A stretch of DNA of 57,945 nt from an uncultured Elusimicrobia bacterium (GCA_964529095.1 CAZGVK010000093.1:1-57945), one strand, 5' to 3'; positions 190 to 43,924 are shown, counted from the stretch's first letter. Notes: generated by a model not told the origin, from the letters alone. Program-made: numbers and translations.

Positions 190-294
190 GGCGCGGTCAG
201 AAGTGCCCCTTCCAAAATCCTAAAGAAATGGATCGAGCAACGCAGTTAGCGTGAAGCGTCGGCATCAAAACACATAGTTATTTTGCGCCAACCC
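190..294 (-). repeat. Intergenic repeat element, copy A (head GGTTGGCGCAA, about 105 nt)
   Basis: Read on the minus strand it begins directly after the TAA stop of the glycosyltransferase. It aligns by hand along its whole length with 43786..43891 on the plus strand. Single-nucleotide indels between the copies break every reading frame. Confidence 0.7.
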
Positions 295-3565: not shown

Positions 3566-3586
3566 ATTGGTTGTCAGTTTTAAGGC

Positions 3587-4066: not shown

Positions 4067-4083
4067 GGTTTCTTCCTCCTCAA

Positions 4084-10034: not shown

Positions 10035-10042
10035 CAGTATTT

Positions 10043-11095
10043 TTACTTGCGGGCTTTGCACAGTTTACAGCTGAGGAAGGTCCAGGCGATGAGCTTGTAT
10101 AAAAGCCGCATGCCGACGTTGGCGTCCCATTCGTCCTTGACTTCGGGACCAGGGGAGACTTCGTTGAGGTCAAAGCCGATGATCTTTCTTCCCGAGCGCG
10201 CGACGAGTTCGATGAGGTGCGCGGCCTCCGCGAACTCGAGGCCGCCGGGGACGGGCGTGCCCGTATGAGGACAAAGTTTGGGATCGAGGCCGTCGATGTC
10301 GAAGGTGATCCAGACCTGTTGAGGCAAGGAGTCGACGATCCTTCCGGCGGTTTTTGTCCAGGGCTCTCCGGCGAAGCGGAAGCGGCCGAGGTCTCCGTCG
10401 TTGAATATTTTCGCGCGCTCCCCCAGGGCGCGCGCGTATTCATTCTCCTGTTCGCAGAAGTCGCGAATGCCGACCGAGGTGATCCGTATGATCTGGGGAA
10501 TGTTCTCCATCGCGTTATACATGATGGAGGCATGCGACCAAGTGAAGCCCTCGTAGGCGAGACGCATATCTAAATGAGCGTCGAAATGCAGCAGTCCGAA
10601 ATCGCCGTGTTTCTCCGCTGCGGCGCGAAAGGCCCCATAGGGGACGCTGTGATCGCCGCCGACAATGCCCGCGATCTTTCCCGCGTCCAGGAGGCTTTTG
10701 ACTTCACGATAGACCCAGTCGTTCACCTTCGCGCCGAGTTCGTTCGTGATTTTCAACGCCTTCTCCAGATCCTTGCGTCCTTCGATTCGTCCTCCAGCCT
10801 TAATGACCTTTTGAGCCGCGGACTTTGCCGTCCTATTCCATGCGCGCACAATCGGCGATTGCGCGCGCATGAAGATTCCCGGCTCATAGGGCCGGTGCAC
10901 CTCTGCGTCGAATAGGTCGATTTGCCCGCTGGCGGCGCGGATAGCGGTTGGACCTTGCGCGGTGCCGCCGCCGTAGGAGGTCGTCGCTTCCCAGGGCACG
11001 GGAACTAGAACGAGGGCTGAGTTCTTTTCTTCGTAGGGCAAACCAAAGATGCCGGCACCTTTAGTGGGCGCGGAGTTGGGATCAAAGTTGAGCAT
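10043..11095 (-). CDS. Agmatinase/ureohydrolase family protein
   Basis: 350 aa with the arginase-fold metal motifs GGDHSV, DAHLDMR and TFDIDGLDP. Confidence 0.8.
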   Translation of the reverse strand: MLNFDPNSAPTKGAGIFGLPYEEKNSALVLVPVPWEATTSYGGGTAQGPTAIRAASGQIDLFDAEVHRPYEPGIFMRAQSPIVRAWNRTAKSAAQKVIKAGGRIEGRKDLEKALKITNELGAKVNDWVYREVKSLLDAGKIAGIVGGDHSVPYGAFRAAAEKHGDFGLLHFDAHLDMRLAYEGFTWSHASIMYNAMENIPQIIRITSVGIRDFCEQENEYARALGERAKIFNDGDLGRFRFAGEPWTKTAGRIVDSLPQQVWITFDIDGLDPKLCPHTGTPVPGGLEFAEAAHLIELVARSGRKIIGFDLNEVSPGPEVKDEWDANVGMRLLYKLIAWTFLSCKLCKARK

Positions 11096-18142: not shown

Positions 18143-20827
18143 ATGCACAATCAAGCCAAGGTCCACCAAGACGCGCCATCTTCCGCGCTTCTTGATTTTT
18201 TTCTGCCGCTGCACAACGCTTTTGAGCCTCGCCGCCGTCTCCTGCTTGACGCGCGCCGGCGATCTCTTGAAAATGCGCATGCGGGCGTGCTGCCAGGCTA
18301 TCTTCCGGCGTCAGAGGCGACTGCTGGAAAATGGCGCTTGGCGGTGCCCTCATGGGCGCAAGACCAGCGCAACCAGATTACCGGCCCAGCCGACAACGCC
18401 AAGCTTCTTGTCGCGATGTGCAATACCCAAGATCCCGGCTGCATGCCCGACGGCGAGGACTCGATTACGGATGATTGGGATCATGTGAGGACGGCCCATC
18501 GCAATACGGTCGCCGCGATCAAGGGCACCTTGACCTTTACCGACGCTTCCGGCAAGAGGGTGGCAATTAAGCCCTCACGCCAGGTCATGTTTTACCGACC
18601 CCGCGGCCTTCACCTGCATGAGACCAACCTGGTCGCCGTTGGCGCCGTCTCCGCGTCGCTGTTCGATCTTGCCGCTGTTTTTTTCGAAACCGCGGACAAG
18701 CGCCGCGAGGCCGCAAAAAAGGCGGAGCGGCAGGCCAAGCTGTGCTTCTATATTCCCAAAACGGAGTCGTTTGAAGAGGCGGCCTGGTTTTCCGACATGA
18801 TTGCGGCGATGGAAACGGCTATCGGCATCCCTGTCGGTACGACCAAAATAATGTTCCTGATTGAATCGCTTCCAGCGGCCCATCAGGTTGAGGAGATTTT
18901 ATTTGCGGCGCGCCGCCACGCTATCGGTCTCAACCTCGGTCGTTGGGACTACATGGCGAGCATTCTTCATTTCAAGCTGGCCGATCCGGATTGGATTCTT
19001 CCCGACCGCAACACCATACCCCACGACATTCCTTTTTTCCAGAACATAAGAAAGCGAATCGTGGACGCTTGCCATCGGCGAGGGGCGCTCGCCATCGGCG
19101 GCATGAGCGCGTTGTTCCCGGATCGCACGAATGCGGAAGTCAACGCGCGTGCGCAGGAACGGCTTATCGCCGACAAGAAGAACGAGTCTCAAATTGGCTT
19201 TGACGGCGCTTGGACGGGTCATCCCGATCAACACAAGGGTGCCATTTCCCAGTTTCCCCTCCCCAATCAACTCTCAATCAAGCACGCAAAGGCCAAGCGC
19301 CTCGACCTCACGCCCTCGCCTGTCGGCGTCGGTGCGATCACTGTTGCCGGCACGCGCGATGCGATTCGGACCTGCATCGAATACCGTTTCGGCGTACTCT
19401 CGGGCCTTGGCGCGCGCCTGATCAAGGGCTACGACAAGACCGGCGCTTTGATCGGCAATTTCATGGAGGACTTGGCGACCGACCGAATCTACCGTCTCAT
19501 GATTGCCCAGCGCGTTCGCCACGGCGTCGTGACGGCCGAGGGCGTGAAGATATCGTCTGAGCTCGTGGATGCTTGGTTCGATGAGGAACTCCGGAATATT
19601 TTGGCTGCGAATTCAGGAGCCGCTTCGGCGGATCAATACAAGCAAGCCAGCGTGTGGAGCCAGCAAATGATCAAGCAAACAGCCGCGCCTAAACCCGTAG
19701 GAATTAAAACCTGGAAGTATCCCGCCGCCGAATTCGCGAAGATGTATGCGCCTGCCGAGAAGGGACATCCCGCCGACAAACTGCGCGCGCTTCTAAAGAA
19801 AAAATCAGCCAACCGCTTTAAAAATCCGGCGCAGTCCTTCCTGCACACTGCGGGCGCTTACGATGCGATAACCGCCTCGTTGCTCACGGATCTCGGCTTT
19901 GAGGCAATCTACGCCAGCGGCTGGCAGTTGGCCGTCGCCCACAACATGTATCCCGATATCGGCATCTACCCGTCGCATCAGATGGTCGATCTGGCGCGTG
20001 AACTCGTGCGCGGCATTGAGGGCACCCGCGACCGTCACTTTTATGATGATGACGGAAAAGTTCTCAATACGCCGCCGATCTTCGCCGACATCGAGGCTGG
20101 GTTCGGCGGACCGACCCAAACATTTACGCTGACGCGCGAGTTGATCCGCGCGGGCGTGGGCGGCGTTCACCTTGAAGATCAGGATCCGGCGGAGCGCACG
20201 TGCGGCCACATCGTGGCGCACCACGGCGTCAAGCGCGAGAAGGTTCTCGTGCCGACCAATAAGTGGATCGAGAAGCTCATCGCGGTGAAGGCTGCGGCAC
20301 AGGCTGCCGAAACGAACCTGGTCGTGATCGCGCGCACCGATGCAGTCGACGGCGCGGTCCCTGGCGGTCGGACCGGCAGTGTCGCGCACGCGATCGACCG
20401 CGCGCTTGAGGCGGCTTCGCTCGGCGTTGACGTGATCTGGCCTGAGTTCAACAACACCGATATCGAGGGGCCGCAGGAGTTTGCCGAGGGTGTGCATAAA
20501 TATTATCCGAACCAGATACTCGGATTCAACCTCTCTCCTTCGTTGCACTGGGGCAAGGCCAAGAAGGACGGCGTTTTAATCACCAATGAGATGTTGGGAA
20601 AAATAGGCTTTACGCTCCAGTTCTCGACCTTGCTCGCCTTTCGCACGATCGGCATGGCGCTGGAAAGTTCCCTGAAAAGCTTCCGCGAGCGCGGCATTGA
20701 CGCGCTCGCAGACCTGCAGATTTCAGAGATCGCTCAACCCAACGGCGAGCCGCGTACCCGCATGCACCAGAAGTTCGCCGGCACCAACCGCTGGCTCACG
20801 CTCGAGAAAGTCAGCAGGGGCGCATGA
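18143..20827 (+). CDS. Bifunctional malate synthase (N-terminal, A-type) and isocitrate lyase (C-terminal) fusion
   Basis: 894 aa. The N-terminal 520 aa or so carry malate synthase A features (ITGPAD, PDGEDS, GGMSALFP, FDGAWTGHPDQ). The C-terminal 335 aa or so carry ICL features (SGWQ, YPD..IYP, ADIEAGFGG, LEDQ...CGH, VLVPT, ARTDA, NLSPSLHW, LQFSTL). Confidence 0.85.
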   Translation: MHNQAKVHQDAPSSALLDFFLPLHNAFEPRRRLLLDARRRSLENAHAGVLPGYLPASEATAGKWRLAVPSWAQDQRNQITGPADNAKLLVAMCNTQDPGCMPDGEDSITDDWDHVRTAHRNTVAAIKGTLTFTDASGKRVAIKPSRQVMFYRPRGLHLHETNLVAVGAVSASLFDLAAVFFETADKRREAAKKAERQAKLCFYIPKTESFEEAAWFSDMIAAMETAIGIPVGTTKIMFLIESLPAAHQVEEILFAARRHAIGLNLGRWDYMASILHFKLADPDWILPDRNTIPHDIPFFQNIRKRIVDACHRRGALAIGGMSALFPDRTNAEVNARAQERLIADKKNESQIGFDGAWTGHPDQHKGAISQFPLPNQLSIKHAKAKRLDLTPSPVGVGAITVAGTRDAIRTCIEYRFGVLSGLGARLIKGYDKTGALIGNFMEDLATDRIYRLMIAQRVRHGVVTAEGVKISSELVDAWFDEELRNILAANSGAASADQYKQASVWSQQMIKQTAAPKPVGIKTWKYPAAEFAKMYAPAEKGHPADKLRALLKKKSANRFKNPAQSFLHTAGAYDAITASLLTDLGFEAIYASGWQLAVAHNMYPDIGIYPSHQMVDLARELVRGIEGTRDRHFYDDDGKVLNTPPIFADIEAGFGGPTQTFTLTRELIRAGVGGVHLEDQDPAERTCGHIVAHHGVKREKVLVPTNKWIEKLIAVKAAAQAAETNLVVIARTDAVDGAVPGGRTGSVAHAIDRALEAASLGVDVIWPEFNNTDIEGPQEFAEGVHKYYPNQILGFNLSPSLHWGKAKKDGVLITNEMLGKIGFTLQFSTLLAFRTIGMALESSLKSFRERGIDALADLQISEIAQPNGEPRTRMHQKFAGTNRWLTLEKVSRGA

Positions 20828-27874: not shown

Positions 27875-29221
27875 GTGTATGATCTCGTGATTGTCGGCGC
27901 GGGCGTCACCGGCGCGGGCATCGCCCGCGATGCTGCTCTTCGGGGACTGCGCGTTATTCTTGTGGAGCGGGGCAAGCCCGGCGGCGGCACGACTGCGGCC
28001 TCCACGCACCTCATCCACGGAGGCGTGCGCTACTTGCTCTATGATCGTCTTACCACGCATTCATCGTGTTTAGATTCGGGCCATATCGTGCGCACCGCAG
28101 GAGGCCTTCTCACGCGCCTGCCCATCCTCTGGCCGATCTATAAAGGACACGCGCGCGGTCTCGAAATCGTGGAGACCTTATTCGAGCAGTATGATCGCTT
28201 TCAGGCGATGAAGTACGGCCGCCCGCATCTGCGCCTGAGCGCTTCCGCAACCCTGCGCGTCGTGCCGGGCCTCTCGCCCAAGGGCTTACTCGGGGCGTTG
28301 GTGTTCGACGAGTGGTGGGTGGACGCGGAAAATTTAGCGCGCCGCACGCTTGATTCAGCGCGCGCGGCCGGCGCTGAGGCGCTGCTTGAAACTCCGGTGA
28401 CATCCGTGCTGAAAGACGGCGCGCGCGTGATTGGCGTTCGCGCCGGCGACCGAGAGTTGCGGGGCAGGATCACGGTCAATGCCGCCGGCCCCTGGATCGA
28501 CAAGGTATCAACACTCGCCGGCGTAAGCCTGCCTCTGCGTCTCATGAAGGGAACGCACCTGATCTATCATGAAAAAAAGCTGACGACGGTCGGGCTTCTT
28601 TTAGAGGCAGAGGACCGGACCCGCTACGTCTTCGTCGTGCCCTCTCCTCTGGGCACCTGGGTCGGCCCCACCGACATCCCCGGACCTCTTGACCCCGATC
28701 AGACGCGCACGACCGATGTGGAGATTGGTTATTTAACGCGGTCGGTCAAACGCTATTTCCCCAACTGGCCGGAACGCCACGACGCCACTATCGTAGGCAC
28801 GCGCCCAATCCTAGGCCAGCCTGGCGCAGAAAAGCTCTTGTCGCGCGATTTCGAGGTCTTTGATCACCAGGTGCGCGACGGGGTCGCGGGCTTTCTCACG
28901 ATCGGCGGCGGCAAGATGTCGGACTACCGCGCGATGGCCGAGGCCACGGTGGACGTTGCCTGTCGAATGCTCGGCACAGGCGGCCCCTGCCGAACCCATT
29001 TAGAAACATTGGATGGCAAGCCCGTTGGCGCCATTGCCGATTGGCCGCCGCCCTCGCCGGAGCTGAAGAAATTTTTGCGCGCCAAACCGCTTCTGCGCGA
29101 ACTTCACGCGCTGTCTTATCTCGGCGCGGGCCTAATCTCCCACCTCTTCCGGCGCGCGACGGGCCTTTCCGGGATCAGCGATGAGAAGGAGTTCCACCGC
29201 CGCTACGCGGATGCTCATTGA
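27875..29221 (+). CDS. FAD-dependent glycerol-3-phosphate dehydrogenase-like oxidoreductase
   Basis: 448 aa with a GTG start. DLVIVGAGVTGAGIARDAALRG FAD fold, then HGGVRYL. Confidence 0.8.
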   Translation: MYDLVIVGAGVTGAGIARDAALRGLRVILVERGKPGGGTTAASTHLIHGGVRYLLYDRLTTHSSCLDSGHIVRTAGGLLTRLPILWPIYKGHARGLEIVETLFEQYDRFQAMKYGRPHLRLSASATLRVVPGLSPKGLLGALVFDEWWVDAENLARRTLDSARAAGAEALLETPVTSVLKDGARVIGVRAGDRELRGRITVNAAGPWIDKVSTLAGVSLPLRLMKGTHLIYHEKKLTTVGLLLEAEDRTRYVFVVPSPLGTWVGPTDIPGPLDPDQTRTTDVEIGYLTRSVKRYFPNWPERHDATIVGTRPILGQPGAEKLLSRDFEVFDHQVRDGVAGFLTIGGGKMSDYRAMAEATVDVACRMLGTGGPCRTHLETLDGKPVGAIADWPPPSPELKKFLRAKPLLRELHALSYLGAGLISHLFRRATGLSGISDEKEFHRRYADAH

Positions 29222-29481
29222 ACAAAACAGCAAGACCAGACGGCGTCCTGTACTGGAATGAAAGGAGAGAGGAAGCAGTCGCTTCATGAAATTCAGAACG
29301 TTTGTGTTCTTCCGGCAGGTGCGCGTGAGCAGACTTTCAGCCATGGGTGAGAATGTCGCGAAATTCCTTGCGCAGGGGGTAGCGGTCAAGGCGGGAGCCG
29401 ATATTATCGCCTCCTAATGGCTCGTGCGTCGTTCTCCGCCCGCCGGGCGCGGAATTTTATTTTTTTAGGATATAAATTGAG

Positions 29482-30630
29482 TTATTTGTTTGCGCTCAAT
29501 TCGGCCGCCTCGACAAGCTTGGACAAGCGCGCGAAAACGACATCCTCGTCATGCGCGTGCGCCTTGACGATGCGCGCGCGGCGCGCATCGTCAGAGTCCA
29601 TGGACCCGGCCGCGGCGATCCACTCGGCGGGCGTGCGGCAGATCGTCAGGAGCGAAGACAATCCCGAAAGCGCAGGCAAGGGGCTGGCCAATACCAGACG
29701 GCCCGTCGCCAAGCATTCGTAGGTCTTGGCCGGTATGACGCCGCGATTATACGCATCGTCAACATACGGCAGAAGCAAGGCGTCCATTCCAGAGAGCAAG
29801 GCCGGCAAGTCTTCGTGGGGGCAAGGGCCGCGCAATGCGACTGACGGAGGCAACGGCGGCGGCGGTTCCTTAATCGGGCCGATGAGTTCAACCTCAAAAC
29901 CGGCCTCCGCCAGCGCTCGTATGGGCGCGTAGTCAATCGCCCGCCATAAAGTCCCGAAGTAGCAAAGACGCCGCCGTCGTCGGCTCGGCGGCGGGGGAAT
30001 AAAGAACGCGGGGCTTACGCCATGATGCAGTTCAAAGACGTTATGATGCAGCGGCTTCTTCTCTTCGTACAGCGTATGCGAGGTCGTCAGCACGAGACCG
30101 GCGCGCGCCATCAGCGCGGCCTCGGTCTGAGCCAGATCCGGGGGCGAGGAAAGCAGGCCGTAGAAATTGTCTACGCAGTCATAGACGACAAGCGCCGGCT
30201 TAAGCTGGTCAAGCATATCCAGAGTCGTCGACGTTGGAAGATAGGCGAAGACCACGGGGTTCTGCCGCATGCCGCGATTATAAAGGATGCTGACGAGGCG
30301 TGGCGCCAGCAGGGACGCGTTGGCCTTGCGAAACAGCCGGCGCGTGGGCGGCAGAACGAGCGGGCTGACGACGACAATCCCCTGAGGCGCGCGTACGCGG
30401 CGAGAATGTTCGCCGCGCAGACTGCGGAGGAGGCGGCGCCAGATGCGCCCCATCTCGCTTAGACGCGGCTCGCGAAAGCCGGTGTTCTCGACAAAAAAGA
30501 CGCGATGCCCGGCGCGCGCCCACTGCGCGGCGAAAGCGTGATGGCGCTGCCGGGCCGCATCCCAATCAACGCTTGAAAGAATGACGACGTCGCCGCGCTG
30601 ATCGCTCACAGGACGCTTATGATACAGCAA
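29482..30630 (-). CDS. Glycosyltransferase (GT1/TuaH-like), last gene of the polysaccharide operon
   Basis: 382 aa with a TTG start at 30630. Its 5' end lies inside direct-repeat copy 1. GT-B-like C-terminal half. Confidence 0.75.
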   Translation of the reverse strand: MLYHKRPVSDQRGDVVILSSVDWDAARQRHHAFAAQWARAGHRVFFVENTGFREPRLSEMGRIWRRLLRSLRGEHSRRVRAPQGIVVVSPLVLPPTRRLFRKANASLLAPRLVSILYNRGMRQNPVVFAYLPTSTTLDMLDQLKPALVVYDCVDNFYGLLSSPPDLAQTEAALMARAGLVLTTSHTLYEEKKPLHHNVFELHHGVSPAFFIPPPPSRRRRRLCYFGTLWRAIDYAPIRALAEAGFEVELIGPIKEPPPPLPPSVALRGPCPHEDLPALLSGMDALLLPYVDDAYNRGVIPAKTYECLATGRLVLASPLPALSGLSSLLTICRTPAEWIAAAGSMDSDDARRARIVKAHAHDEDVVFARLSKLVEAAELSANK

Positions 30631-30661
30631 AAATCGGCGTTGGCGTCCGAAACCTCAGCCG
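30591..30661. repeat. 71-bp direct repeat, copy 1 (left boundary of the insert)
   Basis: Identical to 33114..33184 except C30653 versus T33176. It contains the glycosyltransferase start and the upstream junction sequence. Confidence 0.95.
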
Positions 30662-30996
30662 ACCGGGCTGGGACCGACCCCTTGATTAATCCCAGGAGAG
30701 GGTCTATCCTGGGCCCGCGAGGGCGGCTGCGGCGGAAAGCGGGCTGATTTTGCCTAGCTTGTACCGGACGTAGATCGGGTTGGGGGTATGCGGCTCCGGT
30801 CAACTTTGTCAAAAATACTGTAGTTGCGCAGTCACTGATAGCGTTCATGGGGTAGCTGGAATAGAACGACGATGGATCATGCGGTCGGTAAATATGGCCG
30901 ACTTCTGGAAGGTAAGAAACCTCATGAACGTTCGCGTCTATTGAGGAGTTTGTTCAGTCAATCCAAAGCGAGGGTCTCGATTTCGAGTACGTCCCT

Positions 30997-31191
30997 ATGG
31001 GCAGCGGCACGACGCGCAAGGATTCCCTGGTCGTTGAAGTGGACACGCAGAACAAGGAAAAGGACCTCGACAAGCTCGATATCCCGCTGCCGAGAATCAC
31101 CCGCCGTTTTCACCGGGACTTCAAGGATCTCGACGCGCTCGACCCCATTTCGCTAAGTCCTTTGCGCGCGAGCGCATTCCTCGGTGCATGA
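30997..31191 (+). CDS. Orphan ORF or gene fragment inside the insert
   Basis: The open frame actually extends back to about 30928 (..IEEFVQSIQSEGLDFEYVPMGSGTT..), and a neighbouring frame continues upstream, suggesting a frameshifted remnant. It vaguely recalls helicase/restriction-subunit C-termini, but I cannot verify that. Confidence 0.25.
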   Translation: MGSGTTRKDSLVVEVDTQNKEKDLDKLDIPLPRITRRFHRDFKDLDALDPISLSPLRASAFLGA

Positions 31192-31227
31192 ACCAGTTCA
31201 GAATAGTCATATTTCGTTGCTTGTGAG

Positions 31228-31305
31228 GTCTAACGCCGAGGATGAACCGCGGGCGCTCTAAGGCCTTCATCATGAGCGCCCGGCGGCTCTATCCGATGGT
31301 TAGCC
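31228..31305 (-). repeat. attC-like recombination site 1
   Basis: Imperfect palindrome with GTCTAAC ... GTTAGCC ends, an unpaired spacer next to the end boxes, and a GC-rich inner stem (CCGC/GGGCGCTC). Two single-base bulges (G and T) both sit on the plus-strand 3' arm. It abuts the RelE/ParE-like stop at 31307. Confidence 0.6.
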
Positions 31306-31306
31306 C

Positions 31307-31582
31307 CTATAAATAGTGCTTCAAAAATTGCCGGACCTCGTTGTGATTGCCGACGAATAGGAATGTCACGGTCTGTTTATCCCACTGGAACAAGATGCGA
31401 GTGGCCAGGTCTATCCGAAATTCCCAGACCGATCCACCCATTTTTTTTATTCCAAAACCAACCGGAAGATTTCTTGCATCAAAGGCACGGACGAGTGCAT
31501 CAATATTCCTCTGAATTTCCATGCGTTCCGCCGGATGGCGGCGCCTAAGGATTCTTTCGAATCCTCCGCCGAGAAGGTACAT
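31307..31582 (-). CDS. RelE/ParE-superfamily type II toxin
   Basis: 91 aa, ATG at 31582. The pattern is GGSVWEFRIDLATRILFQWDKQTVTFLFVGNHNEV. It lies directly downstream of an RHH antitoxin gene. Confidence 0.75.
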   Translation of the reverse strand: MYLLGGGFERILRRRHPAERMEIQRNIDALVRAFDARNLPVGFGIKKMGGSVWEFRIDLATRILFQWDKQTVTFLFVGNHNEVRQFLKHYL

Positions 31583-31585
31583 CAA

Positions 31586-31819
31586 TCAAAGGCTCCAGAG
31601 ATGCTTAAGAAATGCTGCGGAGTTCTTAAATTTCCTGGTCCCCTTGCCTCGCTTCGCATCGGTCGCCATTCGCTTGATCTCACCATCCGCGAACCGTGAG
31701 GTATAGGAACTGTCGATGGCCTCTCTAACGAGCTGGGAATAGCTCTTCCCGGATTCAGCTGCCTCCCGGCGAAGGGCCAAAACCTCTTTCTTTTCTAGGA
31801 GAATCTGGACTCTAATCAT
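31586..31819 (-). CDS. Ribbon-helix-helix (CopG-like) antitoxin
   Basis: 77 aa. The N-terminal IRVQILLEKKEVLALRREAAESGKSYSQLVREAI is a typical RHH fold sequence. Confidence 0.75.
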   Translation of the reverse strand: MIRVQILLEKKEVLALRREAAESGKSYSQLVREAIDSSYTSRFADGEIKRMATDAKRGKGTRKFKNSAAFLKHLWSL

Positions 31820-31836
31820 ATTATACCCCTATATTG

Positions 31837-31865
31837 TGTATAACATGTGTAATTGCTCGTGTCAA
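31837..31865 (-). promoter_or_regulatory. Sigma70-like promoter for the RHH/RelE pair
   Basis: Minus strand reads TTGACA, 17 nt, TATACA. A TATAAT also lies just before the antitoxin ATG. Confidence 0.5.
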
Positions 31866-31869
31866 GAGG

Positions 31870-32031
31870 CTAATTTGCGGTGATTAGCCAGGCGAGCAGA
31901 AAGCCACTTAACTGATGCCAGCCCGTGAATGTAAATTTTAAAACCCTACTGCTAAGCACATATGTAATTGGGAAAAGAACGACCACACATGGCAGCGTGA
32001 AAGCAGCGATTAGGGAGAGAAAATAAGACAT
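31870..32031 (-). CDS. Small two-helix membrane protein (53 aa)
   Basis: Internal ATG preceded by AAGGAGGAA. MSYFLSLIAAFTLPCVVVLFPITYVL...LSGFLLAWLITAN gives two hydrophobic helices. It is in the same attC-delimited unit as the RHH/RelE pair. Confidence 0.4.
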   Translation of the reverse strand: MSYFLSLIAAFTLPCVVVLFPITYVLSSRVLKFTFTGWHQLSGFLLAWLITAN

Positions 32032-32069
32032 CTGCCGTTCCTCCTTGTCCGAAATATCATCGCAAATGC

Positions 32070-32112
32070 GCCTAACGCAGAGGCTGACCAGCGGCGGCTT
32101 CAATGGTTCGGC
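32070..32112 (-). repeat. Short or degenerate attC-like site 3
   Basis: GCCTAAC ... GTTCGGC ends share the AACGC.GAGG and ATGGTT flanks seen in the other two sites. At only 43 bp with a weak stem, it is below normal attC length. It abuts the BrnA stop. Confidence 0.35.
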
Positions 32113-32122
32113 CCGGGGGTGC

Positions 32123-32341
32123 CTATGCCGCCCATTTCAGTGCGAGCTTCTTGTGATGCGCTGCACAATCGCGCAGGTACAGGTTAATCAAGTTCTGATA
32201 TGGCATCCCAACCTCAGATGCCAGCTCTTTGAAATACAAAACAGTCGCCTTATCCAGCCGAATGGTAATGGGCTGCTTTAGGCGAGAGATGTACGGGTTC
32301 TTTACGCCCTTCATCTTTGAAAAATCATAGTGCGTTCTCAT
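32123..32341 (-). CDS. brnA: BrnA-family antitoxin
   Basis: 72 aa from MRTHYDFSKMKGVKNPY, with an RHH-like C-terminal part. GGGAGG lies in the end of the upstream toxin gene. Confidence 0.8.
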   Translation of the reverse strand: MRTHYDFSKMKGVKNPYISRLKQPITIRLDKATVLYFKELASEVGMPYQNLINLYLRDCAAHHKKLALKWAA

Positions 32342-32346
32342 ATGGG

Positions 32347-32631
32347 TTACCTCCCGTAATCCTTCGACTCGCTCTTGCTCGCCTTCCTTGCGGAAATGAT
32401 GCGGATCACTGCATCGCCGTCTCTGAAGCAGTGGCATACAACGAGAACTTTCAGTTTGACGCTCATACCCAGAAGAATGAAGCGATCTTCGTCACCTGAA
32501 TCGTCAGGATCGATAAAACGAAAAGCCTTTTCATCAAAGAACGCGGTCTGGGCTTCCGCAAAAGCAACTCCGTGCTTTCGGATGTTCTCCTTATCCTTGG
32601 CTTTGTCCCATCCGAAGCGCAACTCACTCAT
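32347..32631 (-). CDS. brnT: BrnT-family (DUF497) toxin
   Basis: 94 aa. FGWDKAKDKENIRKHGVAFAEA...RIISARKAS is the typical BrnT pattern, and the toxin-first gene order is as in BrnTA. Confidence 0.85.
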   Translation of the reverse strand: MSELRFGWDKAKDKENIRKHGVAFAEAQTAFFDEKAFRFIDPDDSGDEDRFILLGMSVKLKVLVVCHCFRDGDAVIRIISARKASKSESKDYGR

Positions 32632-32637
32632 ACATAC

Positions 32638-32666
32638 AGTGTATGCACAGAAGTGAGAAAAGTCAA
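32638..32666 (-). promoter_or_regulatory. Sigma70-like promoter for brnTA
   Basis: Minus strand reads TTGACT, 17 nt, TACACT, ending 6 nt before the brnT ATG. Confidence 0.5.
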
Positions 32667-32702
32667 TCCCAATGCTGTTTCCGGGTTGTTTCTGGTTAGT
32701 GG

Positions 32703-32775
32703 GCCGAACGCTGAGGATCTCCAGCGCCCGCTATAAGGCCGTTCGGCGGGCGTCTGGAGAATCCCATGGTTAGAC
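32703..32775 (-). repeat. attC-like recombination site 2
   Basis: GCCGAAC ... GTTAGAC ends with a long inner stem (CTCCAG/CGCCCGC). Two single-base bulges again sit on the plus-strand 3' arm. The flank sequence is shared with site 1 (AACGCYGAGGAT ... ATGGTTAG). Confidence 0.55.
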
Positions 32776-32845
32776 CGCCGTTTTTACTCACCAGCGCCGA
32801 TGCATCAATTAAGTAGTGTCGAGGCACGTACTACTTCAGCGCTTC

Positions 32846-32986
32846 CTACAGCTCGCGAAATGTGACAGGCCTATCGCTTAGAGGAGGCAGGGAGTCAATG
32901 CGCTTGAAAATTTCTTTCACCTTGCGGCTCAGATTCTTCCAGCCTTTCTCACCATGCTCTTTTTTATAGATTTCCTGATGAGTCAT
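32846..32986 (-). CDS. Hypothetical 46-aa ORF in the first cassette-like unit
   Basis: It is below the track's apparent length cutoff (shortest listed ORF is 60 aa), so it is not listed there. The ATG is preceded by AAGAGGAGG. Sequence MTHQEIYKKEHGEKGWKNLSRKVKEIFKRIDSLPPLSDRPVTFREL. Confidence 0.3.
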   Translation of the reverse strand: MTHQEIYKKEHGEKGWKNLSRKVKEIFKRIDSLPPLSDRPVTFREL

Positions 32987-33113
32987 CGCGCCTCCTCTTG
33001 AAGTATGGGGTATTTTATAAAAAATTCAAGACCTGTTTCCCATCGAATGCGAGTTTATCCACATCGAGCCAACCGCGCCATGAAGCGCTCAAAAACGTCT
33101 TCGGGAACCTCGA

Positions 33114-33184
33114 CGCCGCGCTGATCGCTCACAGGACGCTTATGATACAGCAAAAATCGGCGTTGGCGTCCGAAATCTCAGCCG
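33114..33184. repeat. 71-bp direct repeat, copy 2 (right boundary of the insert)
   Basis: See copy 1. This copy holds the deacetylase stop codon (33178-33180) and a decoy glycosyltransferase start that runs into a 32-codon chimeric ORF. Confidence 0.95.
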
Positions 33185-33942
33185 TCGCGCAACAACGGGT
33201 CTGCTTGCCGCCAGGAAAACCAGTCCCAGGTTCCAGAGGCCTTGCCGATGAAGTCCCGCTCGTCATCGAAGCCCGTGATCTCGACGCGCTTGAGCAGCAG
33301 AGGCGCGCGGCCTGCTTGATTGATGCCGTAGAGCGAGCAGGCCGCGCGTGTAAAGCCGGCGGCACTAGCCGCAGCCTGCGTTCGCCGCGAGGCGGCACCG
33401 TGCGGCCAGGTCATCACCGTCACGCTTCGGCGGAGGGCTTTTTCCAGGCATTGCCGCGACTCGATAAGTTCATGGGCTAGATCCATGTCGCCGAGCGCGT
33501 CCAGGCGCCGATGCGTGAGGCCGTGTGCGCCGATCTCGCAGCCCGGCATGCGGGAGAGTTCCGTCAATTGCGGCCAGGAGAGGTGAGGATGCCCGGAGTC
33601 AAGCAGCCCGGGCGTAACACAGACGGTAAACGGCAAAGACAGTCGCGCGAGAATCGGGGCCGCTGTCATCAGCGTATCGAGATAACCATCGTCGAATGTG
33701 ATGCTGATTTCAGCGCCGCCGTCGATCTTAGCGTCGCCTATGTTGACAGGGCGTCCGAAGCGTTCCGAGCGGATCAGCTCCATCTGGCGCGCGAAGATGT
33801 TTGGCTGAGAGCTCAGTCCGTAACGATCACCGGGGATGTCGGTGCCGACGGCGTGATAGCCCAAGATGCGCAAACCCGTCGAGCGTGAGGCGCGCCCGGC
33901 GACGCGGGCGATCGTCCGCCAGAGCGAATGCTTCCAGCTCAC
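33178..33942 (-). CDS. Polysaccharide deacetylase (NodB homology domain)
   Basis: ISITFDDGY and GAHGLTHRRL motifs. Start placed at the GTG that overlaps the upstream TGA (GTGA), not at the track ATG 34017. Confidence 0.8.
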   Translation of the reverse strand: MSWKHSLWRTIARVAGRASRSTGLRILGYHAVGTDIPGDRYGLSSQPNIFARQMELIRSERFGRPVNIGDAKIDGGAEISITFDDGYLDTLMTAAPILARLSLPFTVCVTPGLLDSGHPHLSWPQLTELSRMPGCEIGAHGLTHRRLDALGDMDLAHELIESRQCLEKALRRSVTVMTWPHGAASRRTQAAASAAGFTRAACSLYGINQAGRAPLLLKRVEITGFDDERDFIGKASGTWDWFSWRQADPLLRDG

Positions 33943-34928
33943 GCGGCCTTCCCCAGCTTCCAGGCGATGAGCGCTCCCGCAGGGCGGCGCAAAAGAGCCG
34001 GAGCGGAGAAGTCCCACTCGCCGAGAGTCGTGATGAGGCGCGCATTGATGCCCTTTTTAAAGTCAGCCACGCCGGGCGTTGCCAGAGGGTCCGCGCCGCC
34101 GAGGTCGTAGGTCCGAGCGCCGAGATGTCGGGCTTCAAGCACGAGAGACCAGAGCAGAGCATAGGAGGCGTAAACCTTGCGCGCTTCCATATTCGCGGCC
34201 GCGAGGAGATCGACGGCTGAGCCCGCGAACACGGCGCAGCCGCGCAAAGCGACCGTGCGGCCGTTGACGACGGCGCGACGCAAGACCAACGATCCTCCGA
34301 GGGCGCGCACAAGCGATCCTAATTCCTTGGCGCGATGCTGGGGAGGAAGGCCCTTGAGCGATTCAAGAGAGCGATAGAGGCTTTCCATCTCGAGCGGGTC
34401 GGGGTCGGGCCATGGTGCCACCTCGGCGCGCGCGAGGCCTCTCTTGAGATTATGGCGCCAGTTGGACGAGAGGCGTTCTCTCAAGACAGCGGGGTCAGGA
34501 GTCAGTTCGAGGAGATACGTCTTATTGCAATCGAGCGGCGTTTGAGGACGCAGCCAGCCTTCGGCGCGCAGAGCGTCGGTTTCAAGAGGGTCGGACTCGC
34601 GATAGGAGCAAATGCGCCCATAGGCCAGAAGGCCTCCGGCCGCGGACAGCAAAGCCTTGCGCAGTTCCAAGTTGCAGAGAGAAATTTCGCCAACCGGCCC
34701 GCCGCGCGACCAGAGCAAGCGCGCACCTCCGGGGATATCCTTGACCAGCGCTTGGATTGCCGCTTGCGGCGCTCCGTCGTTTCCAGCCAGCGCGCGCACC
34801 GCCTGCCAGCCGGCGTCCGCTTTATGCCGCGCCCACGCCGAAGATTGGAAGGCGTTGGCGCCGGGCAATGCGGCCAGCGTTTTGTCCCAGTCCGCATCCG
34901 CTATTTTTATCGTGCGCCAGTTCACCAT
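33939..34928 (-). CDS. FemAB-family (GNAT-fold) acyl/aminoacyl transferase-like protein
   Basis: Start at MVNWRTIKI (ATG 34928, overlapping the upstream stop). AFQSSAWARHKADAGW and the overall FemAB-like layout. Confidence 0.7.
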   Translation of the reverse strand: MVNWRTIKIADADWDKTLAALPGANAFQSSAWARHKADAGWQAVRALAGNDGAPQAAIQALVKDIPGGARLLWSRGGPVGEISLCNLELRKALLSAAGGLLAYGRICSYRESDPLETDALRAEGWLRPQTPLDCNKTYLLELTPDPAVLRERLSSNWRHNLKRGLARAEVAPWPDPDPLEMESLYRSLESLKGLPPQHRAKELGSLVRALGGSLVLRRAVVNGRTVALRGCAVFAGSAVDLLAAANMEARKVYASYALLWSLVLEARHLGARTYDLGGADPLATPGVADFKKGINARLITTLGEWDFSAPALLRRPAGALIAWKLGKAA

Positions 34929-35947
34929 AAGAAGTGGACCAACGCAACATTGCGATGATGTTCCGGCGCGGAGGAGGCGAGTGCTGAGGGCAGGTCCGGC
35001 CAAGGCAGGACATTGAGACCCTCAGCGGCGAACCAAGGGCGAGCCTTGTTTCTGCCGCCGCGGAAGGCGTAGGCGTAAGGGACGGTCCCTGCGGGCAAAA
35101 ATGGGAAGACCGGTATCAGGCCCGCGCGGCGCGCAAGAGCGTCGCACCGCGTCCAGAGGGCGCGGCGGCGCTCTGATTCGAGGGCGGGATCGGCGCAGAC
35201 GAGAGCTCGCCCCAACTCAACGCACGGCTCGGCAGGTTTTGGCAGGACCCGCTCAGACTCAAAGCCGGGGCCGATATTTCCGCTGGCGTCGCCGCGAAGC
35301 GCGCGCCAAGCGGTTAGGCCCGCGTGCGCGCCGACGGCGCCGGCGAGCGCCAACAACGGACGCGCCGCCGCTTTTAGCATCGGCCGGTATCCGGGATGAG
35401 CTTTAAAGGACAACTGCGCCGGCATAGAGGCGGCCAGGGCCGGGTCATTGGCGAGGAGCGCTCCGCCATTGGGCAGGGGCAGGCTCTTGCGCAGGCTCAA
35501 TATCCCGAGAGGGGCGCGTGTCCCTAAGAGGCGGCCAGTCGAGTCGCGCGAGAAGAGGCCGTGGGCCGCGTCCTCGATGACGACAGCACCGCAACGCCGG
35601 GCGTAGGCCTCAAACGGGGAAAGGTCTGCGGCGAAGCCGAAATAGTCAACGGCAAGAACGGCGCGCGCGACGGGCCAGCGGGCGCTGTCCAGATCGGCGG
35701 AGAGATCGGCGGACGTGCCGTAGAACACCGCCTCAGCGCCGACCGCGGCGACGGACGAGAGCATGTCTCGACAAATGAATGCCGGCAAGAGCACTCGCCC
35801 CCCTGCGGCCCCTGCGAGGCGCAGGGCGGAAGCGAGGGCGTTGCGCCCGTGGCCATGCAGACGCAGCGCCGCGGGGGCGAATATGTCATTGAGGTGCCAG
35901 GGCGCTCGAGCGTGAGGCGGCGCGTAGACCGTGGCGGCGAGATTCAT
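34922..35947 (-). CDS. DegT/DnrJ/EryC1-family aminotransferase-like protein
   Basis: Start at MNLAAT (ATGA overlap with the upstream gene). GRNALASALRLAG, LPAFICRDM and VIEDAAHG. The region where the PLP lysine is expected reads SLRKSLP. Confidence 0.7.
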   Translation of the reverse strand: MNLAATVYAPPHARAPWHLNDIFAPAALRLHGHGRNALASALRLAGAAGGRVLLPAFICRDMLSSVAAVGAEAVFYGTSADLSADLDSARWPVARAVLAVDYFGFAADLSPFEAYARRCGAVVIEDAAHGLFSRDSTGRLLGTRAPLGILSLRKSLPLPNGGALLANDPALAASMPAQLSFKAHPGYRPMLKAAARPLLALAGAVGAHAGLTAWRALRGDASGNIGPGFESERVLPKPAEPCVELGRALVCADPALESERRRALWTRCDALARRAGLIPVFPFLPAGTVPYAYAFRGGRNKARPWFAAEGLNVLPWPDLPSALASSAPEHHRNVALVHFLW

Positions 35948-36849
35948 TTGCTTGCCGCGCGGAGCGCCCAGAAGGCCGCAGTCGCCGCATTTTTCCAGTC
36001 CCAGGGGCATAATGCGACGGCGCGCCGCGCGTAGGCACCGCCTGTCTTGAGGTCTCCCTGCGCGATCAAGAGGCGCGCGGCGGAGCGGCACATGACGCTG
36101 AGGCGACGGCTCATGCGCCGCCGGGTGCGCGCGTCGGGATTTTTAAAATTTTGGAAGTGGTGGCGTAGAAGCCTCTCCAGGTTGGTCGAGTGATAGACGA
36201 TTTGATTGGACGCGCCGCGCTCGACAAGCTGGTACTCGCCGAGGACTTCGGTTAGAAAGCGCATGCGGCATAGAGGGGCCAAGCGCATCCAAAGGTCGTA
36301 GTCTTCGACGGTGTTGAATTCCGGATTCTCCCGAAACAGGCCGGCCTCGAGCAGTTTAGACCTCTTGACCGTCACGGCCGATGGCGACAAGGCATTTCCT
36401 TCAAAGAGAAGACGCTCATACATGTCCATGACCCATGGGCCATTGCGCGACACGCGAACGAGTTCTCCGTTCTTGACGATATTTTCATCATGGCACACGA
36501 GGTCGGCGTCGAGGTGCGCATCGAACTCGGCGATGACGCGCGCGAGTTTTTCGGGAAACCAGAGATCGTCATGGTCGAGAAAGGCGACCAGGTCGGCTTC
36601 CGCCGCGCGGATGCCGGCATTGCGCGCCCCGGCAATTTTTTTATTCTCCTGCTTAAGACAGCGGCCGCGCAGACTTCGATCTTTCAAAAAATGATCGACG
36701 ACGGCTTTTGTATCATCGGAAGACCCGTCGTCGATGACGACGATCTCAAAGTCGGTGAAAGTCTGGGCAGCGACCGTCGCCAGCGTTTTTGATATGAAAG
36801 CGGCCGCGTTCCAAGCGGGGATGATGACTGAGACGCGGGGCTTTGCCAC
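35944..36849 (-). CDS. GT2 family glycosyltransferase
   Basis: 301 aa. VSVIIPAWNAA, IVVIDDGSSDDT and FLDHDD motifs. Confidence 0.85.
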   Translation of the reverse strand: MAKPRVSVIIPAWNAAAFISKTLATVAAQTFTDFEIVVIDDGSSDDTKAVVDHFLKDRSLRGRCLKQENKKIAGARNAGIRAAEADLVAFLDHDDLWFPEKLARVIAEFDAHLDADLVCHDENIVKNGELVRVSRNGPWVMDMYERLLFEGNALSPSAVTVKRSKLLEAGLFRENPEFNTVEDYDLWMRLAPLCRMRFLTEVLGEYQLVERGASNQIVYHSTNLERLLRHHFQNFKNPDARTRRRMSRRLSVMCRSAARLLIAQGDLKTGGAYARRAVALCPWDWKNAATAAFWALRAASK

Positions 36850-43785: not shown

Positions 43786-43891
43786 GGTTGGCGCAAAAAC
43801 AACCATCTGTTTTTGCATGCCGATGCTTCACTCTAACCGCGTTGCCCGATCCCTGTCTTTAGGATTTGGAAGGGGCACTTCTGACTGCGCC
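43786..43891 (+). repeat. Intergenic repeat element, copy B
   Basis: Aligns with 190..294 (minus strand) from GGTTGGCGCAAAA through GGAAGGGGCACTTCTGAC.GCGCC. It contains the hairpin GCAAAAACA-ACCATC-TGTTTTTGC. Confidence 0.7.
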
Positions 43892-43924
43892 CTGTTAGAG
43901 CATCGCCTCGCCATCGAAAAATCA

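What the first reader, a model, noticed from the sequence alone, without database searches (positions are those of the whole stretch)
30591..33184. A 2.5 kb insert splits a polysaccharide operon and is bounded by 71-bp direct repeats of the gene junction
- **Repeat identity:** 30591-30661 and 33114-33184 are identical at 70 of 71 positions (C30653 versus T33176).
- **What the repeat is:** it is the natural junction of two operon genes. It holds the deacetylase stop codon (33178-33180 in copy 2), a short spacer, and the TTG start plus the first 13 codons of the glycosyltransferase (30630 downward in copy 1).
- **Consequences:** copy 1 continues into the intact glycosyltransferase. Copy 2 continues into a 32-codon chimeric ORF (MLYHKRPVSDQRG, then VEVPEDVFERFMARLARCG, then stop).
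- **Content of the insert:** the DNA between the copies is visibly AT-richer. It carries only toxin-antitoxin genes, small ORFs and attC-like sites.
- **Interpretation:** 71 bp is far longer than a transposase target-site duplication. The pattern fits integration of a circular element that carried its own copy of the junction, either by site-specific or by single-crossover homologous recombination. The single mismatch fits a foreign donor.
Basis: seen in the sequence. Interest (0 to 1): 0.75.

Follow-up and report, generated by a model that had tools for sequence, protein, structure and literature searches.

The report
Integron cassettes splitting a polysaccharide operon
Three integron gene cassettes, mostly toxin-antitoxin genes, sit between two genes of a conserved sugar-polymer operon in an uncultured Elusimicrobiota bacterium, flanked by a 71-74 bp duplication of the gene junction that the usual integron insertion reaction would not produce.

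Summary
This is the only long repeat in the 58-kb contig. The 2449 bp between the copies have about 50% GC, against about 60% in the flanks.

Fourteen related Elusimicrobiota genomes have the deacetylase and glycosyltransferase genes directly adjacent, so this is an insertion.

The insert is a cluster of integron cassettes without an integrase (a CALIN). It has two intact attC sites and one attC with a 38-nt internal deletion, all on the operon strand. They belong to an attC family found 173 times in 75 metagenome contigs, five of which carry integron integrases. The BrnT/BrnA cassette recurs at 92% identity in another array, with homology ending exactly at the cassette boundaries.

The insert ends lie 402 and 572 nt from the nearest attC crossover points, so the integron integrase did not make this insertion. 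The boundary sequences suggest a three-cassette circle opened inside one cassette.

The duplicated junction fits a single crossover with a junction-bearing circle (about 0.4), or fill-in of a staggered break or a template switch (about 0.3). The contig alone cannot separate these.

Verdict: a known kind of element with an unusual border. Interest is moderate.

The parts
30588..30661 (-). Junction repeat, copy 1 (J1). Strict 71-nt frame 30591-30661. It runs straight into the intact glycosyltransferase.
   Evidence: Its 30591-30608 part aligns with the native glycosyltransferase 5' end of relative L005.
33111..33184 (-). Junction repeat, copy 2 (J2). It follows the deacetylase and contains its stop codon at 33178-33180. 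Downstream it opens the 32-codon chimeric ORF 33055-33153.
29482..30609 (-). Glycosyltransferase gene. Probable start GTG 30609; the mechanical ORF start is TTG 30630.
   Evidence: Weak Pfam Glyco_trans_1_2 match. 250 homologues, P0001 is 375 aa. N-terminus aligned with relatives.
33178..34017 (-). Polysaccharide deacetylase gene. The start codon is uncertain because the ORF overlaps the upstream FemAB/GNAT-like gene.
   Evidence: PF01522, 70.1 bits. Synteny DegT - FemAB-like - deacetylase - glycosyltransferase in relatives.
30662..33110 (-). The 2449-bp insert: a cluster of integron cassettes lacking an integrase (CALIN), oriented with the operon.
   Evidence: GC about 0.505. Absent from 14 relatives. 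attC model hits.
32703..32775 (-). attC 'C', intact. R'' is GTCTAAC and R' is GTTCGGC. It is 94% identical to an attC in groundwater contig L110.
   Evidence: Covariance model R1, 73.3 bits, E = 2.6e-22, against 10.5 bits on the other strand. DNA fold z = -3.5. BLAST to L110.
32070..32112 (-). attC 'B', inactivated by a 38-nt internal deletion. It keeps R'' GCCGAAC and R' GTTAGGC.
   Evidence: R1, 22.4 bits, with the ends matched and the middle missing. No fold, z = +0.5. The full-length 80-nt version is seen in L150 (alignment A2).
31228..31305 (-). attC 'A', intact. R'' is GGCTAAC and R' is GTTAGAC.
   Evidence: R1, 70.6 bits, E = 2.2e-21. Fold z = -2.7, with bulged G and T on the 3' arm of the plus (bottom) strand.
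32076..32708 (-). BrnT/BrnA toxin-antitoxin cassette. BrnT is 32347-32631. BrnA is 32123-32344 (ORF listed to 32437). A promoter-like site lies at 32666->32638.
   Evidence: PF04365, 95.9 bits, and PF12441, 32.7 bits. 92% nucleotide identity to L150 from G|TTCGGCC to the cassette's own R'. Promoter scan.
31234..32075 (-). Cassette with a small hydrophobic ORF (within 31870-32103), a ribbon-helix-helix antitoxin (31586-31819) and a 92-aa partner that is a probable toxin (31307-31585). A promoter-like site lies at 31842->31815.
   Evidence: PF01402 RHH_1, 22.2 bits. The partner has only a sub-threshold Gp49/HigB-like match, E = 0.022, so 'toxin' is an inference from gene order. Promoter scan.
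32709..33110 (-). Upstream incomplete cassette piece. It holds a 46-aa ORF (32846-32986) with its promoter region, then only about 13 codons (32827->32790) of the partner gene before attC C. It has no 5' cassette boundary.
   Evidence: Homologue P0127 (72% identity) in L167/L168 is followed by a 174-aa ORF that begins VPRHYLIDASA. The window's homology stops at 32790.
30662..31233 (-). Downstream incomplete cassette piece. It starts TTAGAC right after attC A and has no attC of its own. On the opposite strand (30945-31191, +) it carries a fragment similar to short proteins, one of which a source names 'type III restriction enzyme'.
   Evidence: 76% nucleotide identity to L085.

Best explanation
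**What it is (shown).** The element is a foreign 2.45-kb cluster of integron gene cassettes with no integrase (a CALIN). It lies between the deacetylase and the glycosyltransferase of a conserved polysaccharide operon in an Elusimicrobiota genome, co-oriented with the operon. Its contents are:
- one BrnT/BrnA toxin-antitoxin cassette
- one ribbon-helix-helix antitoxin plus partner cassette
- two incomplete end pieces
- two intact attC sites and one dead attC

**How it got there (inferred).**
- The cassettes left an integron as a closed three-cassette circle.
- The circle entered the chromosome not through an attC, which is the integron integrase route, but at a point inside one cassette.
- The 71-74 bp duplication of the native junction is most simply the footprint of a single reciprocal (Campbell-type) crossover. 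The crossover would be between the chromosomal junction and a copy of it carried on the circle, probably RecA-dependent. The circle would have arisen by pop-out from an already occupied site in a sibling genome.

**Consequences.**
- Shown: each flanking gene keeps an intact end.
- Inferred: recombination between the two repeats would excise the insert precisely and restore the operon.
- Inferred: the two self-promoted toxin-antitoxin modules penalise that loss.
- Inferred: their promoters, and read-through from the operon, point towards the glycosyltransferase.
For: **Insertion.** The two genes are adjacent in 14 relatives, and nine have overlapping stop and start codons. The insert is low in GC.

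**Cassette identity.**
- The hairpin with two bulges is supported by covariation: 98.7% of cells paired, 12 of 17 stem pairs with compensatory changes, 0 of 500 shuffles reaching the observed values, and slid controls at 31-57%.
- Model hits score 73, 71 and 22 bits on the minus strand only, with nothing else in 58 kb.
- The same family occurs 173 times in 75 metagenome contigs, with 12 or more sites in the 6.8-kb L109.
- Integron integrases lie next to five arrays (TIGR02249, 415-430 bits against a cut-off of 265).
- The BrnTA cassette is 92% identical in L150, with homology bounded exactly at the G|TT sites.

**Not made by the integron integrase.** The insert ends lie 402 and 572 nt from the nearest attC crossover points.

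**Circle.** The TTAGAC after attC A pairs 4 of 4 with the GTCT of attC C. Within this family the rule holds in 16 of 26 consecutive sites, against 7.9% for random pairs.

**Duplication of native sequence.** L005 aligns into J1 as far as 30608.

**Literature.** Toxin-antitoxin cassettes carry their own promoters and maintain arrays (PMC13108822). The origin of CALINs is an open question (PMC4889954).
Against: - No junction-bearing circle, donor or empty-site allele of the same species was found. The junction 38-mer is absent from the JGI metagenome contigs and from all 168 fetched loci.
- The first junction-flanked copy still needs a non-homologous origin, so the crossover model explains spread rather than genesis.
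- 62-71 bp of identity is short for RecA-dependent recombination. From general knowledge it is above the minimal efficient processing segment of about 25-30 bp, but recombination at that length is inefficient.
- The circular-permutation argument rests on one 4-nt match (likelihood ratio about 8).
- No homologue of the proposed intact end cassette was found.
- Everything rests on one metagenome-assembled contig, with no read data.
Confidence: 0.4

Rival explanations
1. Illegitimate insertion with a target duplication made on the spot. A cassette circle, or a linear array fragment, was captured at a staggered double-strand break whose ~74-nt overhangs were filled in. Alternatively, a replication template switch left the chromosome at the end of the junction, copied the circle once, and rejoined 74 nt upstream. 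No junction copy on the incoming DNA is needed.
For: - It explains the origin of the duplication without a prior junction-bearing circle.
- The insert ends lie at arbitrary points inside cassettes.
- There is imperfect microhomology: the junction ends in CAGCGCGG and the insert ends in CAGCCCGG, 7 of 8 (P about 0.04 for random 20-mers).
- Another relative (L012) has an independent, unrelated insert at the same spot with no long repeat. This shows that illegitimate insertions do occur here.
Against: - A 74-nt stagger is unusual.
- The microhomology is marginal.
- The single mismatch needs a later mutation in an insert that otherwise looks recent: GC has not drifted towards the host value, and one cassette is 92% identical to a copy elsewhere.
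- Whether this organism has end-joining enzymes is unknown.
Confidence: 0.3
2. Assembly or population artefact. The chromosome has a single junction, and the insert exists only as a separate molecule or in a minor strain. The assembler threaded a loop through the shared 62-nt core.
For: - The source is a single metagenome contig, and no reads are available.
- The exact shared core (62 nt) is within the range of assembler k-mer sizes.
Against: - A loop through the junction requires real reads that join the junction to both ends of the insert. A junction-bearing 2.5-kb molecule must therefore exist, and that in turn implies an integrated form.
- The two copies differ at one internal position.
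- No other such repeat occurs in the contig.
- Both flanks continue seamlessly into conserved genes.
Confidence: 0.1
3. Site-specific integration by a tyrosine or serine recombinase supplied in trans, with the junction repeat acting as attL/attR. This would be an integrase-less, cis-mobilisable islet.
For: - Direct repeats of tens of bp that rebuild the ends of the target genes are typical of integrase-borne islands (general knowledge).
- 71 bp is within the known range of att identity segments (general knowledge).
Against: - No recombinase gene is present in 58 kb.
- The repeat has no inverted-repeat core or structure (z between 0 and +1.5).
- The target is a lineage-specific spacer that close relatives lack, which makes it a poor conserved att site.
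- The cargo is integron cassettes, not island genes.
Confidence: 0.07
4. Integron-integrase insertion of cassettes at a secondary genomic site (attG), followed by rearrangements.
For: - The cargo is integron cassettes.
- Integrase-mediated insertion outside att sites is documented (10.1101/2022.09.11.507474), and CALINs can arise this way (PMC4889954).
Against: - That reaction opens the circle at the attC R' box and places an attC against the target. Here both borders are 402-572 nt from the nearest attC crossover point.
- The attG paper does not mention a target duplication; the word 'duplication' occurs 0 times in its text.
- Two extra rearrangements would be needed.
Confidence: 0.05

Closest known systems
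CALIN (cluster of attC sites lacking an integron integrase; Cury et al. 2016, PMC4889954)
   Same: - Three attC sites lie on one strand within 1.6 kb.
- No intI lies within 25-27 kb on either side.
- The array is small, with cassettes of unknown or toxin-antitoxin function.
   Different: - It is flanked by a 71-74 bp duplication of the chromosomal target.
- Both array ends are broken inside cassettes.
- The end pieces look like a circularly permuted single cassette.
- The host phylum is Elusimicrobiota. A search of the paper library for integron + Elusimicrobia + attC returned no paper.
Toxin-antitoxin cassettes of sedentary chromosomal integrons (for example the Vibrio cholerae superintegron; PMC13108822)
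   Same: - They are type II toxin-antitoxin pairs, each with its own promoter-like site, embedded as cassettes.
- They are expected to penalise loss of the surrounding DNA.
   Different: - Here they make up most of a very small array with no integrase.
- The loss they would counteract is homologous deletion between the junction repeats, not integrase-mediated excision.
Campbell-type (single-crossover) integration of a circular DNA that carries a segment of chromosomal homology
   Same: - The product structure is identical: homology - insert - homology in direct orientation.
- Both flanking genes are kept intact.
- It is reversible by recombination between the repeats.
   Different: - The homology is only 71-74 bp.
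- The circle would be a non-replicating set of integron cassettes.
- Neither the circle nor its junction copy has been observed.
Integron-integrase insertion of cassettes at genomic attG sites (10.1101/2022.09.11.507474)
   Same: Integron cassettes end up inside ordinary chromosomal genes or operons, away from any integron.
   Different: attG insertions are cut at the attC R' box and at a GWT target. Here the borders are not at an attC, and a long duplication is present.
Integrase-less islets flanked by att repeats (cis-mobilisable elements derived from integrative elements)
   Same: It is a short element without recombination genes, bounded by direct repeats that include the ends of the flanking genes.
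   Different: No sign of an integrative-element origin, no recognisable recombinase core site, and the cargo is integron cassettes.

Membership tests
Integron gene cassette / attC site | An imperfect hairpin of the form R''(..AAC)-L''-loop-L'-R'(GTT..), with extrahelical bases on one arm that define the strand | tested here: met
   Sites A and C fold with z = -2.7 and -3.5. The family hairpin with two bulges on the 5' arm of the top strand has 98.7% of cells paired and 12 of 17 pairs covarying. Model scores are 73 and 71 bits on the minus strand against about 10 bits on the plus strand.
Integron gene cassette / attC site | The sites recur in same-strand arrays, spaced by cassette lengths, next to an integron integrase | tested here: met
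   This was tested for the family in public metagenome contigs, not in the window itself. There are 173 hits in 75 contigs. TIGR02249 integron integrases at 415-430 bits lie beside arrays in L108, L115, L140, L143 and L162.
Integron gene cassette / attC site | A cassette is a discrete unit bounded at the G|TT of consecutive R' boxes and is found in different contexts | tested here: met
   The BrnTA unit is 92% identical in L150. Homology starts at G|TTCGGCC and ends at the cassette's own R'. The neighbours on both sides differ.
CALIN | [quoted passage not shown] | tested here: met
   The three hits are 32703-32775, 32070-32112 (with the internal deletion) and 31228-31305, all on the minus strand. 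The definition comes from PMC4889954.
CALIN | No integron integrase nearby | tested here: met
   No tyrosine-recombinase Pfam hit in any ORF of 150 aa or more in the contig. The rest of the genome was not available.
Complete integron | intI plus attI adjacent to the first cassette | tested here: not met
   The operon genes abut both ends of the insert, and there is no intI.
Integrase-mediated secondary-site (attG) insertion | The insert border coincides with the attC R' crossover point, and no target duplication is made | tested here: not met
   The borders at 30661/30662 and 33110/33111 lie 572 and 402 nt from the nearest attC crossover points. A 71-74 bp duplication is present.
Insertion sequence / transposon | A transposase gene, terminal inverted repeats and a short fixed target duplication | tested here: not met
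   No transposase. No inverted repeat at the insert ends. The duplication is 71-74 bp.
Integrase-type genomic islet (att-flanked) | A recombinase that recognises a core inside the direct repeats | not testable with these tools
   No recombinase is on the contig, and the repeat is unstructured. A trans-acting enzyme elsewhere in the genome cannot be excluded.
BrnT/BrnA type II toxin-antitoxin | An adjacent BrnT ribonuclease toxin and a BrnA/CopG-type antitoxin | tested here: met
   PF04365 scores 95.9 bits (cut-off 34.5). PF12441 scores 32.7 bits (cut-off 28). The genes overlap or abut. Activity was not tested.

The most novel reading that the evidence does not exclude
Multi-cassette integron circles can colonise ordinary chromosomal sites without the integron integrase. 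After a first illegitimate capture that duplicates the target, the array plus one copy of the junction can pop out and re-enter sibling genomes by homologous recombination at that junction, while its toxin-antitoxin cassettes hold it in place. This would be a distinct, integrase-independent route by which CALINs form and spread, and a way for operons to acquire reversible insertions.
Probability: 0.2. Interest if true: 0.65.

Novelty: new variant of a known kind. Interest (0 to 1): 0.45.

Why it matters
**The open question it touches.** How integrase-less clusters of integron cassettes (CALINs) arise is unresolved; PMC4889954 lists four untested routes. In this example the borders can be read precisely:
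- they are not at attC sites
- the chromosomal target is duplicated over 71-74 bp
- the two broken end pieces fit together as one cassette

Together these point to capture of an excised multi-cassette circle by the host's general recombination or repair machinery, not by the integron integrase.

**Other points of interest.**
- It places integron cassettes in Elusimicrobiota, a phylum for which a search of the paper library found no mention of attC or integrons.
- It shows a cassette family shared across groundwater metagenomes.
- It illustrates how a tightly packed operon junction can accept foreign DNA without losing either gene.

**Caveat.** This is one contig, and the mechanism is inferred.

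Tried and rejected
**Searches that found nothing**
- Exact-protein look-ups of the glycosyltransferase, deacetylase, BrnT and the RHH protein: nothing on record.
- The junction 38-mer in the JGI metagenome contigs: 0 hits.
- The insert against plasmids: no match.
- Rfam on 29000-35000: no family.
- A junction-like repeat around the inserts of relatives L004/L012 and L001/L015: none.
- attC sites in 53 loci from relatives: none except a weak 25-bit hit in L032.
- An intact homologue of the proposed end cassette: the two halves have homologues only in unrelated, non-cassette contexts (L085; L167/L168), with no attC there.
- Long direct repeats flanking small attC clusters in the 75 metagenome loci: the only hit was a pair of attC sites. 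The junction duplication was therefore not shown to be a recurrent phenomenon.

**Ideas rejected**
- That the junction repeat is itself a recombination site: it does not fold.
- That attC B is a minimal functional attC: alignment with L150 shows a 38-nt internal deletion.
- That the whole repeat came in with the insert: its glycosyltransferase-proximal part is homologous to the native gene in L005.

**Weak or unconfirmed leads**
- Microhomology at the insert borders is marginal.
- Family assignment of the 92-aa RHH partner: only sub-threshold Gp49-like and spurious S1 hits.
- Reading the 30945-31191 fragment as part of a restriction-enzyme helicase rests on one source's name and on a motif I recognised from memory. 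Pfam did not confirm it.

Full report
**1. The observation**

The repeat is real. The repeat finder reports 30588-30661 and 33111-33184 as a 74-nt direct repeat with 72 identities. A self-BLAST gives E = 2.5e-30. A scan of the whole contig finds no other near-perfect repeat of 28 nt or more. The 2449 bp between the copies have GC 0.505-0.508, against 0.596-0.638 on both sides.

All the genes concerned are on the minus strand:
- DegT-type aminotransferase, 34922-36091
- FemAB/GNAT-like gene, 33939-35003
- polysaccharide deacetylase, 33178-34017
- the insert
- glycosyltransferase, 29482-30630

**2. It is an insertion into a conserved junction**

The window is a whole 57,945-base contig. Its glycosyltransferase has relatives almost only in Elusimicrobiota metagenome-assembled genomes, the best at 75-76% identity.

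I fetched 80 related loci and located the four operon genes in them by tblastn. In 14 genomes the deacetylase and the glycosyltransferase are directly adjacent. In the nine closest of these (L003/L013, L006-L011, L014, L018) the stop and start codons overlap as (A/G)TGA, and the glycosyltransferase begins MTERPF-DVVILSS.

Nucleotide homology between the window and these relatives stops at 30592 on the glycosyltransferase side and resumes at about 33197 on the deacetylase side.

**3. What the repeat is made of**

On the gene strand the 74-nt unit has four parts:
- the last 4 nt of the deacetylase
- its TGA stop
- a 45-nt spacer that the close relatives do not have
- the first 19-22 nt of the glycosyltransferase

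The database copy of this protein is 375 aa (P0001), which puts the start at GTG 30609. That start gives an N-terminus (VSDQRG-DVV) of exactly the length seen in relatives. The alignment with the closest relative, L005, runs into the repeat as far as 30608. The glycosyltransferase-proximal part of the repeat is therefore native chromosomal sequence, and its second copy on the far side of the insert is a true duplication of the target.

**4. What the insert is**

*Finding the attC family.* Two hairpins (31228-31305 and 32703-32775) rank first among all AAC...GTT candidates in the contig. They fold better than shuffled sequence, with z = -2.7 and -3.5. A pattern built from their shared ends (AACCATNGGAT ... 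ATCCTCNGCGTT) hits 75 metagenome contigs, several of them more than once.

*Testing the structure.* I aligned thirty-four of those sites. A hairpin with two bulged bases on the 5' arm of the top strand is supported as follows:
- 98.7% of cells are paired
- 12 of 17 stem pairs show compensatory changes
- 0 of 500 shuffles reach the observed values
- slid controls reach only 31-57% paired

*Searching with a model.* A covariance model built from these metagenome sites gives these results:
- In the window it finds 32703-32775 (73.3 bits), 31228-31305 (70.6 bits) and 32070-32112 (22.4 bits). All are on the minus strand, and nothing else scores above 12.4 bits.
- In the 75 contigs it finds 173 sites in same-strand arrays, 12 or more of them in the 6.8-kb L109.
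- In 53 loci of Elusimicrobiota relatives it finds essentially none.

*Link to integrases.* Five arrays lie beside integron integrases, with TIGR02249 scores of 415-430 bits against a cut-off of 265.

*A shared cassette.* The BrnT/BrnA unit recurs in contig L150 at 92% nucleotide identity. Homology begins exactly at G|TTCGGCC, the R' box of the upstream attC, and ends at the cassette's own R' box. The neighbours on both sides differ. The same alignment shows that the window's middle attC is the L150 attC with a 38-nt internal deletion, so it can no longer fold.

By the definition in PMC4889954, the insert is a cluster of integron cassettes lacking an integrase (a CALIN).

**5. Contents in operon order**

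- An incomplete piece, 33110->32709. It holds a 46-aa ORF. The homologue of that ORF in L167/L168 is followed by a 174-aa gene, of which the window keeps only about 13 codons before attC C.
- The BrnT/BrnA cassette (PF04365 at 95.9 bits, PF12441 at 32.7 bits).
- A cassette with a small hydrophobic ORF, a ribbon-helix-helix antitoxin and a 92-aa partner. The partner has only a sub-threshold Gp49-like match.
- An incomplete piece, 31233->30662, with no attC. On the opposite strand it carries a fragment similar to short proteins, one of which a source names a type III restriction enzyme.

Promoter-like sites precede both toxin-antitoxin pairs and face the glycosyltransferase. No integrase, transposase or other recombinase is encoded anywhere on the contig. 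The surrounding genes are ordinary housekeeping genes.

**6. How it got there**

*Not the integron integrase.* The integron reaction opens a cassette circle at the R' box of an attC, so an attC ends up against the target. Here the borders lie 402 and 572 nt from the nearest attC crossover points. That route, with or without an attG-type secondary site, does not explain the structure. Nothing suggests a transposon either.

*Signs of a circle.* In this attC family, the first bases of a cassette are the complement of the R'' box of that cassette's own attC. This holds in 16 of 26 consecutive site pairs, against 7.9% for random pairs. In the window the rule holds 4 of 4 for the BrnTA cassette and 3 of 4 for the RHH cassette. 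It also holds 4 of 4 between the TTAGAC that follows the last attC and the GTCTAAC of the first attC. That is expected if the two incomplete end pieces are halves of one cassette. The incoming DNA would then have been a closed circle of three cassettes, opened inside that cassette. The likelihood ratio is about 8.

*Two ways to get the duplication.* Either gives a duplicated native junction around such a circle:
- (a) A single reciprocal crossover between the chromosomal junction and a copy of it on the circle.
- (b) A duplication made during illegitimate insertion, by fill-in of a staggered break or by a replication template switch that rejoined 74 nt upstream.

Route (a) explains the mismatch naturally and gives a plausible way for the element to spread among siblings. 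It presupposes an earlier event of type (b) to create the first junction-bearing circle. No such circle, donor or empty allele was found. Route (b) has marginal support from a 7-of-8 microhomology at one border. I rate (a) at about 0.4 and (b) at about 0.3.

*Other rivals.*
- An assembly or strain artefact, about 0.1. Any assembly loop through the junction still requires real molecules that join the junction to both ends of the insert.
- A trans-acting site-specific recombinase, about 0.07.
- An integrase-mediated secondary-site insertion followed by rearrangement, about 0.05.

**7. Consequences**

*Shown*
- Both flanking genes keep intact ends.
- A 32-codon chimeric ORF is created at J2.
- The array is co-oriented with the operon.

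*Inferred*
- Recombination between the repeats would excise the insert precisely.
- The two self-promoted toxin-antitoxin modules would select against that loss, by analogy with toxin-antitoxin cassettes in chromosomal integrons (PMC13108822).
- Transcription can still reach the glycosyltransferase.

**8. Comparison with what is known, and novelty**

The element is a member of a known class (CALIN), carrying known kinds of cassettes. Three features are unusual: the long target duplication, the borders inside cassettes, and the apparent circular permutation. Together they suggest integrase-independent capture of an excised multi-cassette circle. A search of the paper library found no paper that mentions integrons or attC together with Elusimicrobia; this is weak evidence of novelty. 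I could not show that the junction duplication recurs elsewhere. I file it as a new variant of a known kind, of moderate interest.

Noticed in passing
L012 (= L004) 1810-4425, MAG Elusimicrobia RBG_16_66_12: An independent, unrelated 2.6-kb insert of lower GC (0.588 against 0.655) sits at exactly the same deacetylase/glycosyltransferase junction. It carries two AAA_14/DUF4143 ATPase genes. A remnant of the native glycosyltransferase start (ATGACCGAGCAGCCCC) is left next to the deacetylase stop. There is no long flanking repeat and no attC. The junction looks like a recurrent insertion point.
   Followed up: partly
L015 (= L001/L002) about 5400-7000: In the relative whose glycosyltransferase is among the closest (75%), the deacetylase side is replaced. 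A HigA-like (dnstrm_HI1420) gene and small ORFs on the opposite strand lie directly upstream of the glycosyltransferase. This is another rearrangement ending at the same gene start.
   Followed up: no
L108 3650-4603, L115 2397-3338, L140 2788-3723, L143 1404-2363 (metagenome integrons): In four of the five integrase-bearing arrays the integrase gene is on the same strand as the cassettes and upstream of them, not divergent as in classical integrons. In the fifth, L162, the listed sites lie on both sides of the integrase.
   Followed up: partly
L110 265-337 (Hainich groundwater contig): An attC here is 94% identical to window attC C but is attached to a completely different cassette. Either the attC was exchanged between cassettes, or the window's first cassette acquired this attC by deletion or rearrangement.
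   Followed up: partly
window 18143-20827 (+): A single 894-aa ORF combines malate synthase domains (MS_TIM-barrel, MS_C) with an isocitrate lyase / PEP-mutase domain. It appears to be a fused glyoxylate-shunt enzyme.
   Followed up: no
window 9500-10000 (-): A 166-aa ORF matches only the C-terminal part (profile positions 201-346 of 347) of UDP-GlcNAc 2-epimerase. The N-terminal half is missing or in another frame (10003-10533). This is either a truncated gene or a frameshift.
   Followed up: no
window 187-216 and 43865-43894: A 30-nt inverted repeat, 93% complementary, with arms 43.6 kb apart. Both arms are in intergenic-looking positions. Its meaning is unknown.
   Followed up: no
window 29221-29482, compared with L003 7140-8309: In relatives the glycosyltransferase is followed by a Wzy_C (O-antigen polymerase/ligase-like) gene. 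In the window it is followed by a convergent FAD-dependent oxidoreductase, so the operon also differs at its downstream end.
   Followed up: no
window 6260-7308, inside ORF 4084-7587: Four diverged copies of a 35-nt motif (69-89% identity) lie inside a 1167-aa ORF. This suggests an internally repetitive protein.
   Followed up: no
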